In this document: piece by piece, positions 33,001 through 51,000 of the stretch
Layout of the letters: each line of letters starts with the position of its first letter
Position numbering within the stretch: position 1 is the first letter of the stretch
DNA from: Perna viridis
Lineage: Eukaryota
Direction of reading: 5' to 3'
DNA length: 64,000 nt
Assembly (NCBI GenBank): GCA_037379345.1
Contig: CM074511.1
Location: forward strand, 2,542,001-2,606,000
Program-made: the position numbers

Positions 33001-36000
33001 AGGATTCATAGAGGATGCGGGACACATAGGTGGTGGGAGGATACATAGAGGGTGGGGTATACATAGGTGGTGGGTGATACATAGGAAAACTTGAAATGAA
33101 ACTTAAGAATCATTATAGTTTAGAAGATGTGTAGCTTCCTAGTCAAGGCAGGATGTTATTTTTCTGATGTAGTCAGTATTGAGTTCGCTTTGACATCCAT
33201 GATATTTAACCATGGCAACCTAACGAATGTAGATTACAATCTCGCTTTTCATTGGAAAACTGTGGCAGCAACCATGAAATTTAAGGCTCCATTGGGGACC
33301 TTGGTGTCCAGAATATTTTCGATCACTTATATACATGATTGAATTATCTTTAAATATTGTATACGGTAATTGGAAATAGTTAACTTGTTGAACCAATTAA
33401 ATAATTGAAATATGAAACATAGCACCGGCAGTGATCACACAGTTTACCAAATAAAATCTTAATCAGTTTTGGTATTAACAAAGCGAGAATTTGCATCGAC
33501 TCTTTTTTTAAAGATAGTACTTGTTTTTTGTGAGTTTGCTCCAAGCATTTTCAGTTATTTAGTGTTGTTAGGCTATCACAAGATGAATTGTTTCCCTAAT
33601 AAAGAATCTAATCTAACTGTATTGGTACGAAGGAATTTTAACAGTTGCAAAAACAAGATTAAATAATTAAATTATTTCTAATATTGGATACAACTATTTG
33701 TTGATTTCCTCAAACAATTTCATATGAATGTTTATTCTTATTAAATGTGAAGCTCAGAATTTAATGTATTTCTATAACAGACAGTTTGCTAGATTTTCTG
33801 TAAATATATTTTCCCACATTTCCATGATCACAATCCAGAAGCATTGTAATAAATTTTAGAAATATGATTTAGAAGCAGAGAAATATGTTGGTTTTACAGT
33901 AATAATAATATGTTTTAGTGAACACCTGGCAAACAGCTTCTGGTTGGCAGCAGTTACCTATAAGAGCTGAGATCAATGGTATCATGATTTTACCTGCAGG
34001 AACAACATATACAATTCATCATTACTACGACTATACTGATTTCAGACCCGCTGTTTATGCTGATCACTCTGTTTTTGAGGTACTCTATTGAGACAGTCAA
34101 TTGGTATCCAACTGCAATATTTAGAACCCAACTGTAATTAGTAGGGCTATTGCATTAATTATAAATAATTTTCAGTTCATACTTGGGAGGCAGACATTTG
34201 GCAGTGTCAGATCCAGGGAGGGTTCAGGTGGTTTTAACCAACTACCCATTTTTTTGAAAATGAGCAAGTAATAACCCAGACCCCTCCTTTTTTCTTGAAA
34301 CCCTTTAAATCCCCCTTTTAAAAATCTATGGATCCACTTCTGCATTACAAAACAAAAACACAAATATATAATGTTTTTGTAAAACCTTTATTGATTATTG
34401 AATGTATGTATTACAATCTTTCCATTTTCCTTTTTGTGAGGTAAGTATTCGAGTGTTCAGACTCAGTGAGATATATACCATGAATCAGACTACATGTAGT
34501 ATAATACAATGGAAAATCTTATATTGCTGTATAATTTTAATTTGATGATATTGTAGACTCCTTCAGGTGTTGTATGTCCTGGACGTAAACAAACAAGAGC
34601 TGTTCCACAACTAAAAAATGCCTTTAAATACAGAGAAGAAATTTTAGCTAATGGAGGTGTTCAGGAGGTTGATGTAGGTATTACTAGTGAATTGTAGTGA
34701 GATGTAGGTATTACTATGATGAAGTGCAATGAGATGTAGGTATTACTATGATGAAGTGCAGTGAGATGCAGGTATTACCATGACGAAGTGCAGTGAGATG
34801 CAGGTATTACCATGATGAAGTGCAGTGAGATGTAGGTATTACCATGATGAAGTGCAGTGAGATGCAGGTATTACCATGATGAAGTGCAGTGAGATGCAGG
34901 TATTACCTTAATGAAGTGCAGTGATATGTAGGTATTACTATAATGAATTGCAATGAACAGTCCTTGGTCCTTATGGGCCCTTAACCAGTGATAAATTGAA
35001 AAAAAAATTATAATTAGCTATAATTAAGTCAGTTTTTACTTGGGTAAAATCCTACTATACATGTTCATGTGGAATAGAATGTTTCCTCTGCATAATTTCT
35101 GATGGAAACCAACAGTTTATTTGCCAGGGTCTTTAGCATCTTTCCAGAGTCTGTTTTCTTTCTTTTGCAGGTATATTATGATCAAAACTACAACATGTTG
35201 AGATATGATTTTCGACCAAATGGACAGTTTCCTTATTCCAACAATGATGCAGCAACAGAAATACATGATTATAATACAGGTATAGATAACAATATAATAT
35301 AGGTATAGATAACAATATAATGTAGGTATAGATGACACTATAATACAGTTATTGATAACACTATAATACAGTTATTGATAACACTATAATACAGGTATAG
35401 ATAACACTATAATGTACAAGTTCCACTTAAAATTGCTGTTCATTTAATGTTTTCTCTTTTTAATGAAAACTACACTTACCCAGGCTTTTATAGTAAAACT
35501 GAATTATTAAAGACAATATCCTTCAATGAATTATGACAGACCATGATACCATTTTTTTCTTTGGTAAATAGAGAATCCCTAGTCACAGTCAAAGGTCAAG
35601 GTGAGCTGTTAATACAGTAATCTCTAATTCTCTTTGTGCTGCATTATGAATCCTCAAAATTTAATTATCTTTTTACATGTCCTTTATAAAATACTAGCAC
35701 CATATATTTCATGCTGGACACTTTATGTTAACAAAGGTAGTGTTATAGATAGGCACACATACCCAGAAGTAAGTCCTTTAAGGTTCATATTTGAAATACA
35801 TTACCTTTAATCAATATTTCTGTGATTTTGAAGGTGTAGCCTACGCCATAGATAAAGCTGTACAGAACTGCAGTATCATTCCTATACAGAATGGCTCCTT
35901 TGATACCTCCATCAATGTTACACAAGCACTGTCTACCAATGCCTTTGTTATGAGAATGAAATCACCTGCACAGATTTTCTTCTTAGATTCTAAATACACA

Positions 36001-48000: not shown

Positions 48001-51000
48001 TTTTTGTGAAAATCTGCTGCCCATGTTGGAGTTGTTGAGCTTTGGTTTGATTCTTCCTTAGGGTAATCTTCTCATCAGAAACTACTGAACAGAATTCTTT
48101 TGAAATTGGTATAGTAGTTCTTTAGGGTATCCTGCACAAAATAAGTTCAAATTTTTTATCCGTGAAGAAACATGGCCACTTTAAGAACAAATATTACCAT
48201 ATCTGGCCAGGTGAGTGATTCAGGCTCTTGGGAGCCTGTAGTTGCACATTCAAATATGCCAGCATTGTATATTGCATTTTAGATGTTTTCACAGTTCTTT
48301 AAAATGTGGCTGGGGCTATGGTAAAAATTTAGCATTTTCACATTGTATCAAAACAAGCCATGAAAAAATGCCACATGATCCTTTGTTGTGAAAGTTGCAA
48401 ACATTAACTTGGTTGTAAAGCTTAAAAATTTATGCATAAAACTTCTTCATTTCCAGAGGGGCATAACTTAAACAAGTACTATCTTTAAACAAGATAGCCG
48501 ACGTATTTTTTCGCTTTGTTCATTCCAAATATATTTGGTGAACAATTCAAATGTGAGAACACTGTGCTATGTTTAGTAATTCAATTAGTACTTTGTTCAA
48601 CAAGTACACTATTTTCAATTATTCAATGTATAAAAGATTATTCATAATTCAATAAATAATTCGATTGAATTTTATGGTTGCTATCACTTTTGTCCAATGA
48701 ATTATTCAAAGTTATAAGCTCAATCGGTTATATTGTCATGGTAAAGCATCATGGGTATCATGTGATGTCAAAGTGAACTCAGTACCGACTGCATCGGAAA
48801 AATGTGTGTTATTTAAAATCTAAGAGAGTTTTTTACTGAATTTATCCCTACACTAAATTGGAATTATCTTCCTTTCAAATAAAAAAAGCATCAACTTTTA
48901 TAGATATTTTTCCTGCTGCTGGAAAAATGGTTACGGTATATAAAATCATTGTTGTATTTCAATAATCATAAGCAGTCTTAAACATATCAAAAATAAAAAA
49001 TTTGTGGTTTTGTGACCAATTAATTACTCATGACATGATTCTTAAAAGGATTGCTACTTCAATTTGTTTCAGGTGACTACACTTCAAAATTCACCATGAT
49101 AGCTGGTAAAACTGTGTTGTCACAGTCTGATACAATTTACCAACAGATCTACGATGACAACCAGTGTGCTAAGCTATGTGTTGACTATACTGGCTTTACT
49201 TGCAAGTCATTTGATTACTGTGAGGATATTGGAGCCTGTTTCCTAGGAAAAACCCACTTCTATGATGCACCACAAACCAACATCAAGTCAGATCTACTCT
49301 GTAATCATTATTCTAGTGAGTGAATTGTATGATAGATGCATTATTTTCTGTATTGTCAACAAGATGGTTCCAATCAAATAAAATGGTTCCAACTAAATTG
49401 GTAGTAATTGTTATTAAGATTTTGTAAGCTTCAAGTGGGTATTGTGATCCTTTAGGAATGTAGCTGGTTCATCACTGGAACTTCACTACTATTTCTGAAC
49501 ATTACACAAAATTGTAGTCCAAATGTAACTCTTCCTATATCATTCAAAACCTCTATTATATTCAGTAAACATGTTTCTCTTGCAATTATTCAGCTCAATA
49601 GTATTCTGTTATTTCTGCAAATAAAATTAAGATCTAGTCTTCAAATCAACTGAAGATTTGAATGACTCCTTTTTGGCCATGAAAGATATTTAGCAATAAA
49701 TTTGCATTTAAAGAATAAAGTTCTAGCAGTAATGTGTCAAGAAATATTAAATGTGTTGAGCATGTTCCATTTAACACATTAATCAGTAAAAATCTCTATT
49801 TTATTATTATTATTTACCAATTAATAAACAGGAAATGAATTGCAGTGATTTTAACTAAATAAATTGGCAAATTCAAATTGATAAAAAGTGTCTATTTTTT
49901 AAAAATCATTTTTGGTTTAAGGCATTTTTTTTATATATTCTCAGCAGATTATACTTAAAAATTATATCCCAGTTAAAAATTAAAAACTGTGCGTATAATT
50001 TGATTTCGGACAAATTCCAATCCCAAAATATCTGGTCTGATGAATTCCGATCCAAAAATATCTGGAATTGATTGTTAATCAAAACACTACTTTGTTTCGA
50101 GATATCAAATTAAAGATCACTGTAACAGACAGAAAATCATATCAGAATTTATTTATTCCAGGAAACTATATTGATGACTTTAAGAAGAAATCCCGTTACT
50201 ACATAGCATTACAAAACAACAGAATTATATCAGGAGTAAGTGCTACCCAATGTGCAAAATTGTGTGTTGATGAGGAAACATTCAGTTGTGCCAGCTTCAA
50301 CTACTGTGGAAATTACACAGAATGTAGACTGACAACAGCATCGCTGAAAGGAGGCCAAGTCACAGCACAAACCAATGCTTACTGTGATTTGTACACACGT
50401 AAGTGCTTCAGTCATAACACATACCAATGCTTTCTGTGATTTATACACAAGTAAGTGCTTCTTCAGTCATAACACATGTCAGTGCTTTATGTGATCTTCA
50501 CACATGTAAGTGCTTCAGTCGTAACACATGCCAATGCTTTATGTGATCTTCACACATGTAAGTGCTTCAGTCATAACACATGCCAATCCTTTATGTGATC
50601 TTCACACATGTAAGTGCTTCAGTCATAACACATGCCAATCCTTTATGTGATCTTCACACATGTAAGTGCTTCAGTCATAACACATGCCAATGCTTATTTC
50701 TCCCCATTGCAAACAAAGTTTGAGTGGTATATAGGAAAATCTTTTTGTCTGTCAGTTCACATTTATTTGTCCTTTTAAACTGCTGAGTGTTCTCCCCAGG
50801 CCCTGAAAGCGCTGCACTTTACGGCACCATCGAGTTTGAGTACTGCACCATTGACCTCAATACTCTTGCTACCAGTGCTGTGCTTTTAAGTTTAATATGA
50901 GGATTAAAAATGAATTACGACAGGAAACCGAGGTAATTTACAGCAGTCTACAAGGTAAGTAGCTCTTGAAACTGATTGCAGTAAACAGCAAACGTGTGCA

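What the first reader, a model, noticed from the sequence alone, without database searches (positions are those of the whole stretch)
34671..50696. Five splice junctions of one gene are amplified into unrelated minisatellites of decoy splice sites
Seen: sequence-unrelated tandem arrays span the exon 7 donor (32 bp, 34671-34956), exon 8 donor (23 bp, 35270-35413), exon 13 acceptor (49 bp, 40433-40610), exon 15 donor (~60 bp x3, 44739-44905) and exon 19 donor (~52 bp, 50371-50696). That is 5 of 40 junctions. Each unit carries exon-edge bases plus the splice signal, and the array always grows into the intron so the ORF survives. Several decoys have lost or altered the GT/AG. Inference: either a splice-junction-focused (transcription- or splicing-coupled) duplication process, or survivorship of the only exon-touching duplications that are tolerated. 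Either way it supplies raw material for alternative splice sites and for intron gain by tandem duplication.
Basis: partly seen in the sequence, partly recalled or inferred. Interest (0 to 1): 0.72.

Follow-up and report, generated by a model that had tools for sequence, protein, structure and literature searches.

The report
Splice-junction "mirage" minisatellites in a bivalve gene
Five short tandem-repeat arrays in one mussel-like gene each copy an exon edge plus its splice signal into the neighbouring intron; this kind of repeat is already known from amphioxus ("mirages") and the human F7 gene, so it is a new example and not a new kind.

Summary
Tandem Repeats Finder finds all five arrays. 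A 21-exon gene model, built exon by exon against a Mytilus edulis orthologue, puts each array across a real junction: four donors and one acceptor, 5 of the 39 junctions I could map. Units carry 3, 10, 31, 29 and 33 exon bases plus the splice signal. They are unrelated to each other and occur nowhere else in the window.

Of 23 decoy sites, 16 keep GT/AG and many score as well as the authentic site. Using any decoy gives a premature stop.

This is the published "mirage" minisatellite of amphioxus Adh3, globin, TnC and PGBD5, and of the human F7 IVS7 VNTR. The likeliest explanation is ordinary local tandem duplication in a minisatellite-rich gene (11% of its span). It is tolerated because the exon-proximal copy restores the mRNA.

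Uniform seeding predicts 0.8 junction arrays against 5 seen (P = 7e-4). That test is post hoc on one gene, so a junction-focused process is neither shown nor excluded. "Growth into the intron" is a geometric necessity. No RNA data were available.

The parts
27318..58031 (+). Exons 2-21 of a gene for a PAN/Apple-domain type I membrane protein, orthologue of Mytilus edulis P0002 (995 aa). Exon 1, which should hold the start codon and about 4 residues, was not located.
   Evidence: 20 collinear exons, all GT..AG, phases consistent, 3009 nt ending in a stop. PAN_1 matched 4 of the 10 exon frames scanned.
34557..34673 (+). Exon 7, donor GAT|GTAGGT, phase 0.
   Evidence: The M. edulis sequence ...QEVD|VYYD... 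fixes the border.
34671..34956 (+). Array A1: 32-bp unit x 9. It contains 3 exon bases plus the donor and 8 decoys (4 GT, 4 GC). Every unit also carries AG|GTATTA.
35171..35279 (+). Exon 8, donor CAG|GTATAG, phase 1.
35270..35413 (+). Array A2: 23-bp unit x 6.3. It contains 10 exon bases plus the donor and 5 decoys (3 GT, 2 TT). The last decoy is identical to the authentic site.
40425..40610 (+). Array A3: 49-bp unit x 3.8. Each unit holds 18 intron bases with the acceptor plus 31 exon bases. There are 3 upstream decoys (2 AG, 1 TG), and the last copy is the true start of exon 13.
40580..40753 (+). Exon 13, acceptor tatttcag|GT, incoming phase 1.
44658..44770 (+). Exon 15, donor AAG|GTAAAA, phase 0.
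44742..44908 (+). Array A4: three copies of about 56-66 bp. Each holds about 29 exon bases plus the donor. Both decoys keep GT.
45422..45460 (+). A fourth, degenerate copy of the exon 15 donor unit (AAG|GTTATA), about 650 nt deeper in intron 15.
   Evidence: local alignment score 31, reached by 0 of 500 shuffles, and the best place in a scan of intron 15.
50162..50398 (+). Exon 19 (fourth PAN domain), donor CAC|GTAAGT, phase 1.
50358..50695 (+). Array A5: 52-bp unit x 6.4. It contains 33-41 exon bases plus the donor and 5 full decoys, all GTAAGT. The unit is itself an imperfect dimer of about 26 bp.

Best explanation
The five arrays are 'mirage' minisatellites. Each began as a local tandem duplication of a 23-66-bp segment that happened to straddle an exon-intron junction, in a gene whose introns are unusually rich in minisatellites. 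Each then expanded by slippage or unequal exchange. A duplication across a donor leaves the first copy joined to the exon, and one across an acceptor leaves the last copy joined. The mRNA is therefore unchanged as long as the spliceosome uses the exon-proximal site, and the other copies sit in the intron as silent or rarely used pseudo-sites. Shown here: the anatomy, the local and independent origin of each array, the near-equal motif strength of decoys and authentic sites, and the premature stop that follows any decoy use. Inferred: that the exon-proximal site is the one used, as in human F7 and amphioxus mirages; that the arrays are neutral or slightly deleterious; and that their number reflects a high minisatellite birth rate plus purging of the duplications that disrupt exons.
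For: The borders are independent of the arrays: orthologue collinearity, GT/AG and phase, with exons 2-21 summing to 3009 nt and ending in a stop. Only exons 7, 8, 13, 15 and 19 of the 20 queried have local copies of their edges, and 5 of 39 junction cores do. The units are mutually unrelated and absent elsewhere in the window (only 10-11-nt hits, E 0.27 or higher), so they are local duplications and not a dispersed element. The gene is dense in minisatellites: 15 arrays, 3484 nt, 11% of its span. The exon share of the unit is spread widely (0.09, 0.43, 0.63, 0.47, 0.63), as expected if seeds fall at random relative to the junction. Copies are 82-98% alike, so the arrays are young. GT/AG columns change no faster than the other columns (7 of 46 against 40 of 452, Fisher P = 0.18), which gives no sign of selection to disable decoys. 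The same architecture, with normal splicing, is published for amphioxus (PMC3087553 section 16; PMC3902484 passage) and for F7, where only the most upstream of 5-9 identical donors is used (PMC1557585 abstract and Discussion).
Against: Under uniform seeding, 0.8 junction arrays are expected and 5 are seen (P = 7.4e-4; 5.0e-4 for arrays with at least 2.5 copies; for arrays with at least 3 copies, 4 seen against 0.58 expected, P = 1.8e-3). That is a six-fold nominal excess which pure neutrality does not predict. The 10 purely intronic arrays also lean towards donor-like motifs on the sense strand (Fisher combined P = 0.012 against 0.69 antisense). Decoys are as strong as the authentic sites (for example 8.6 against 9.0 for A5 and 10.6 against 10.6 for A3), so silent tolerance depends on a position rule that has not been demonstrated in molluscs. 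For the acceptor array, the authentic site is the most downstream of three identical sites. No RNA or population data were available.
Confidence: 0.7

Rival explanations
1. A mutational process focused on splice junctions, or on 5'-splice-site-like sequence on the transcribed strand, seeds or expands minisatellites there more often than elsewhere in introns. It could be coupled to transcription or splicing.
For: 5 junction arrays against 0.8 expected (P = 7.4e-4; P = 6.5e-3 for 4 or more). 4 of 10 intronic arrays lie within 110 nt of a junction against 1.67 expected (P = 0.07). Intronic arrays carry donor-like motifs on the sense strand only (P = 0.012 against 0.69). An exon 2 13-mer recurs in the intron 2 array.
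Against: This is one gene, chosen because it looked striking; about 1 in 1350 comparable genes would reach 5 by chance. The median distance of intronic arrays to a junction is not unusual (301 against 431 nt, P = 0.22). The exon share of the units is spread and not centred on the junction. The sense-strand signal may only reflect two G-rich arrays (GC skew 0.26-0.29 at 26-28 and 32-34 kb). No mechanism is known.
Confidence: 0.15
2. The arrays are kept by selection as splicing-regulatory elements. Clustered U1 or U2AF binding sites might strengthen exon definition or protect long AT-rich introns. Alternatively they might act as poison sites that lower expression through nonsense-mediated decay.
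For: 16 of 23 decoys keep GT/AG and have authentic-like scores. Every decoy use gives a premature stop, as a decay-coupled switch would need. Intronic minisatellites have been linked statistically to alternative-splicing regions in C. elegans (PMC4039745, abstract only). The U1 protection idea is recalled from memory, not from any call.
Against: The high copy identity is explained by youth alone. There is no excess or deficit of change at GT/AG (P = 0.18). The units are unrelated, so there is no shared motif beyond the splice signal. There is no unusual RNA structure (z from -1.05 to +1.76). Conservation could not be tested.
Confidence: 0.08
3. The finding is an artefact: wrong exon borders, a decaying pseudogene, or assembly error in repeats.
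For: There is no transcript evidence for this window. No protein more than 81% identical to the queried exon was found, so the species' own annotation was not seen.
Against: 20 collinear exons at 46-87% identity to M. edulis, with no frame break and a terminal stop. Orthologue alignments stop at the proposed borders, for example P0003 at 34673 and both P0002 and P0003 starting at 40579. The arrays have internal variants and higher-order patterns typical of real minisatellites. The window contains no N.
Confidence: 0.04

Closest known systems
'Mirage' minisatellites of amphioxus: Adh3, globins BflGb6 and BflGb9, TnC, PGBD5 (described in PMC3087553 section 16 and PMC3902484; original paper Canestro et al. 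2002, PMC117041, not held)
   Same: They are tandem repeats whose units span an exon-intron boundary, at 5' or 3' borders. Units of 10-160 bp are reported. Many but not all copies keep AG/GT. Several can occur at one locus, and they have been proposed as raw material for intron gain.
   Different: The phylum differs: the orthologue hits here are bivalve and mollusc. Five independent arrays in one gene are documented here together with a seeding-null test. Normal splicing and length or somatic instability, which were shown in amphioxus, could not be tested here.
Human F7 intron 7 37-bp VNTR with 5' pseudo-sites (PMC1557585)
   Same: The first repeat element contains the exon-intron junction, so the authentic donor is followed by a run of equally good donors. 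The four donor arrays here have the same architecture.
   Different: In F7 the pseudo-sites are identical to the authentic site, and experiments show that only the most upstream one is used. Here identity is partial and usage is unknown. F7 has one such array, and it has no acceptor-side counterpart like A3.
Intron gain by tandem duplication of an AGGT-containing exon segment (Rogers model, as cited in PMC3087553; cases in PMC2891723 and PMC4974935 seen only in a search listing)
   Same: A tandem duplication produces paired splice signals.
   Different: In that model the duplication lies inside an exon and creates a new intron. Here the duplications sit on existing junctions, no new intron is seen, and decoy use gives a premature stop.

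Membership tests
Mirage minisatellite (exon-intron boundary tandem repeat) | A head-to-tail array of a short unit (tens of bp). | tested here: met
   TRF: periods of 32, 23, 49, about 56-66 and 52 bp, with 2-9 copies.
Mirage minisatellite (exon-intron boundary tandem repeat) | The unit spans an authentic exon-intron boundary, carrying exon bases plus the splice signal. | tested here: met
   Borders come from the orthologue and phase. The exon share is 3, 10, 31, 29 and 33 nt. A1 meets the criterion only marginally, with 3 nt.
Mirage minisatellite (exon-intron boundary tandem repeat) | Regular splicing is not disturbed, meaning the duplicated sites stay silent. | not testable with these tools
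   No transcript data. Only the consequence was computed: any decoy use gives an in-frame stop.
Mirage minisatellite (exon-intron boundary tandem repeat) | Length instability or polymorphism between haplotypes. | not testable with these tools
   Only one haplotype is in the window, and no eukaryotic DNA collection was open. Higher-order variant patterns are merely compatible with turnover.
F7-type 5' pseudo-site VNTR | [quoted passage not shown] | tested here: inconclusive
   The 9-mer (-3..+6) is identical in 3 of 8 A1 decoys, 1 of 5 in A2, 1 of 2 in A4 and 0 of 5 in A5. In A5 the difference is only at position -1 and the intron part is identical.
F7-type 5' pseudo-site VNTR | Only the most upstream site is used. 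| not testable with these tools
   This needs RNA-seq or minigenes.
Intron gain by tandem duplication | A new intron is bounded by the duplicated copies and is absent from relatives. | tested here: not met
   All copies lie in introns that separate exons collinear with the orthologue. No extra coding segment is recruited, and read-through meets a stop before the first decoy. Intron positions in relatives could not be compared.
PAN/Apple-domain membrane protein (host gene) | PAN_1 domains above the Pfam cut-off. | tested here: met
   PAN_1 matched 4 of the 10 exon frames scanned (23.5-39.7 bits, cut-off 21.4), with 4 matched stretches in orthologue P0002.

The most novel reading that the evidence does not exclude
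Minisatellite birth or expansion in this genome is biased towards 5'-splice-site-like sequence on the transcribed strand, at authentic junctions and at cryptic donor-like motifs alike. The cause would be either a transcription- or splicing-coupled mutational process or selection for arrays of U1-binding sites. Mirages would then be the visible tip of a junction-directed process and not random survivors.
Probability: 0.15. Interest if true: 0.7.

Novelty: new member of a known kind. Interest (0 to 1): 0.35.

Why it matters
Runs of equally strong splice sites next to the authentic one are natural experiments in how the spliceosome chooses a site by position and not by strength. One gene here offers four donor-side cases and one acceptor-side case, and the acceptor case has the opposite polarity. 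If mirages are common in bivalve genomes, as the neutral expectation of about 0.8 per gene of this type suggests, they matter in three ways. They are a systematic trap for gene prediction. They are a possible source of unproductive, decay-targeted isoforms. They are also candidate material for the intron-gain model proposed from amphioxus. My literature searches (listings only) turned up no report of mirages in molluscs.

Tried and rejected
- **Dispersed repeat or transposon origin:** rejected. Outside their own arrays the units give only 10-11-nt hits (E 0.27 or higher).
- **Common origin of the five arrays:** rejected. In none of 10 pairs did fewer than 23 of 200 shuffles reach the observed score.
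- **RNA structure masking the decoys:** no support. z-scores are 0.80, -1.05, -0.23, 1.76 and 1.52.
- **Selective inactivation of decoy GT/AG:** not supported. The rates are 7 of 46 against 40 of 452, P = 0.18, and the changes are not independent because variants spread with their units.
- **Intronic arrays generally crowd near exons:** not significant. Median P = 0.22, and the count within 110 nt gives P = 0.07.
- **Deeper exon homology for A1:** none beyond 3 nt (TRF start; blastn start).
- **Exon 2 versus the intron 2 array as a sixth mirage:** left open. There is an exact 13-mer, but the local alignment is only marginal (24 of 500 shuffles).
- **Original mirage paper (PMC117041):** not held, so it is known here only through the two papers that cite it.
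- **Pfam on single exons outside the PAN exons:** nothing above cut-off. Of those 6 frames, 5 had no match and one had a sub-threshold DUF6291 hit.
- **Exon 1:** not located.
- **Joined spliced model:** Searches were made exon by exon, and phases were tracked by arithmetic only.
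Full report
**What the window is.** The window is AT-rich (GC 0.28-0.38 in 2-kb steps) and has no N. I do not take it for human. The translation of one exon finds mollusc proteins only: 9 proteins with E of 0.001 or less among 19 candidates. The best is a Mytilus edulis 'uncharacterized/Apple domain' protein of 995 aa, 81% identical over that exon. None is close enough to be the window's own protein.

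**Gene model.**
- I worked exon by exon. Ten stop-to-stop frames were scanned against Pfam; PAN_1 matched 4 of 10, and one exon was used as the search query.
- tblastn of the database protein P0002 against the window gives 20 collinear pieces from 27351 to 58025, at 46-87% identity. Haliotis P0006 and Pinctada P0003 support most of them.
- Choosing GT/AG pairs with compatible phase gives exons 2-21. Their lengths sum to 3009 nt and end exactly on a stop, with consistent phases throughout. Introns are 213-4967 nt.
- Exon 1, which should hold the start codon and about 4 residues by comparison with P0002, was not located. I therefore examined 39 junctions, not 40.

**Check of the observation.**
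- TRF reports all five arrays (a lower threshold adds nothing at other junctions).
- Each array covers a junction that was fixed independently of it: exon 7 donor 34673|34674, exon 8 donor 35279|35280, exon 13 acceptor 40579|40580, exon 15 donor 44770|44771, and exon 19 donor 50398|50399.
- The exon content of the unit is 3, 10, 31, 29 and 33 nt (41 by TRF).
- I searched every junction's 16-mer core within 400 nt into its intron at up to 3 mismatches. Repeated copies appear at these 5 of 39 junctions, there is a single 3-mismatch hit at one more (the exon 16 acceptor), and 33 have none.
- blastn-short with every exon plus 40-nt flanks finds local duplicates only for exons 7, 8, 13, 15 and 19. 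There are also three scattered 14-18-nt hits (E 0.009-0.05) for exons 9 and 10.
- The five units are unrelated to each other and unique in the window.

**The decoys.**
- There are 23 decoy sites: 8, 5, 3, 2 and 5 in arrays A1-A5.
- Sixteen keep GT/AG. Seven do not: four GT>GC in A1, two GT>TT in A2 and one AG>TG in A3.
- I scored sites with a small matrix built from this gene's other sites. Decoys score like the authentic sites: A5 8.2-8.6 against 9.0; A3 10.6 against 10.6; the last A2 decoy 7.5 against 7.5; the GT decoys of A1 5.5-6.3 against 6.3. The 95th percentile of intronic GT sites is 6.4.
- Strength therefore cannot pick out the authentic site.
- Reading through from each authentic donor meets an in-frame stop before the first decoy. 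Entering exon 13 from any upstream decoy acceptor meets a stop within about 57 nt. Decoy use would thus be unproductive.
- GT/AG columns do not change significantly more than neighbouring columns (7 of 46 against 40 of 452, P = 0.18).
- None of the arrays folds better than its shuffles.

**What it is.**
- The literature search led to two descriptions of the same architecture.
[quoted passage not shown] They are reported for Adh3 (units 10-72 bp), globins, TnC and PGBD5, at both 5' and 3' borders. Many but not all copies keep AG/GT, splicing is normal, and an intron-gain model has been proposed from them (PMC3087553, section 16 read; PMC3902484, one passage).
- In human F7, the first 37-bp element of an intron 7 VNTR contains the junction. 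Only the most upstream of 5-9 identical donors is used, and this is attributed to 5'-to-3' scanning (PMC1557585, abstract and Discussion read).
- The five arrays here meet the two structural criteria for a mirage. The two behavioural criteria, silent decoys and length instability, could not be tested.
- The original Canestro 2002 paper is not held.
- Searches aimed at molluscs listed no such report.

**How it most likely works.**
- The gene is rich in minisatellites: 15 arrays, 3484 nt, 11% of its span.
- A tandem duplication that happens to straddle a junction leaves one intact exon-proximal copy and puts the rest in the intron. This is why the arrays appear to grow into the intron; the geometry guarantees it, so it needs no further explanation.
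- Duplications that fall wholly inside exons would break the frame and be lost.
- The exon share of the unit ranges from 0.09 to 0.63, as expected if seeds fall at random around the junction.
- Copy identity of 82-98% and higher-order variant patterns (GT, GC, GC in A1) point to recent expansion by unit exchange.
- That the exon-proximal site is the one used is inferred from F7 and amphioxus. It was not shown here.
- For the acceptor array the required site is the most downstream of three identical ones. I note only as an inference that a branch-point-like TTTAC lies 21 nt upstream of each AG, inside the exon-derived part of the preceding unit (sequence).

**Is there more than survivorship?**
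- Suppose seeds of the observed periods fall uniformly over pre-expansion introns plus junction-spanning positions. Then 0.8 of the 15 arrays should span a junction, and 5 do (P = 7.4e-4).
- Using only arrays with at least 2.5 copies gives P = 5.0e-4. With arrays of at least 3 copies, 4 are seen against 0.58 expected (P = 1.8e-3).
- Dropping the borderline A1 gives P = 6.5e-3 for 4 or more.
- This is a nominal six-fold excess. However, the gene was picked because it looked striking, and roughly 1 in 1350 comparable genes would reach 5 by chance.
- The 10 purely intronic arrays are not significantly closer to junctions than random placements (median 301 against 431 nt, P = 0.22; 4 against 1.67 within 110 nt, P = 0.07).
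- Those arrays do carry donor-like motifs on the sense strand more than random intronic segments do (combined P = 0.012; antisense 0.69). This rests mostly on three arrays, at least two of which lie where the sense strand is G-rich, so composition may explain it.
- I therefore keep a junction- or donor-focused process as a live minority reading.

**Verdict.** It is a new and unusually dense example, in a phylum for which my searches found no report.

Noticed in passing
window 45422-45460: A fourth, degenerate copy of the exon 15 donor unit (with AAG|GTTATA) lies about 650 nt downstream of the array in the same intron. Local alignment score 31 was reached by 0 of 500 shuffles. This suggests an older duplication, or spread of the mirage within intron 15.
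   Followed up: partly
window 27326-27338 and 27506-27927: Exon 2 (signal-peptide region) shares an exact 13-mer with the 25-bp unit of the large intron 2 array, which starts 80 nt after the exon 2 donor. The search gave 14 matches at up to 1 mismatch, all in exon 2 or the array, against 0.06 expected. The unit also has a donor-like TG|GTAGGA that resembles the exon 2 donor TG|GTAGGT. The local alignment is only marginal (24 of 500 shuffles). It may be a displaced sixth exon-derived array.
   Followed up: partly
window 27506-33085 (arrays at 27506, 32111, 32608) and the other intronic arrays of the gene: The 10 non-junction arrays of the gene tend to contain donor-like motifs on the sense strand (Fisher combined P = 0.012) but not on the antisense strand (0.69). 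AGGT occurs in 3 of 10 units on the sense strand and 0 of 10 on the antisense strand. G-richness of a few arrays may explain this.
   Followed up: partly
window 50358-50695: The 52-bp unit of the exon 19 array is itself an imperfect dimer of about 26-27 bp (TRF rows with periods 27 and 28; half-unit GTCAGT site). The exon end already holds a similar proto-repeat ending in TGCTT, which may have favoured slippage.
   Followed up: no
window 1-19000: The flank is rich in transposable elements and has no TRF array of score 50 or more before 19673. LTR-retrotransposon-like ORFs lie on the + strand at 9531-13819 (gag-like zinc knuckle, RVT_1, rve). RT-like fragments lie on the - strand at 585-4013, and another long open frame at 6731-7723 has no Pfam match. 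These were only described.
   Followed up: partly
window 61535-61885 (-): An open frame of 116 aa matches NDUFS5 (PF10200, 25.4 bits against a cut-off of 21.2). It is probably an exon of a neighbouring gene on the opposite strand.
   Followed up: no
window 40425-40610: All three decoy copies of the exon 13 start read GAC where the authentic exon reads GAT (a synonymous Asp codon). The single difference therefore separates the authentic copy from all the decoys.
   Followed up: no
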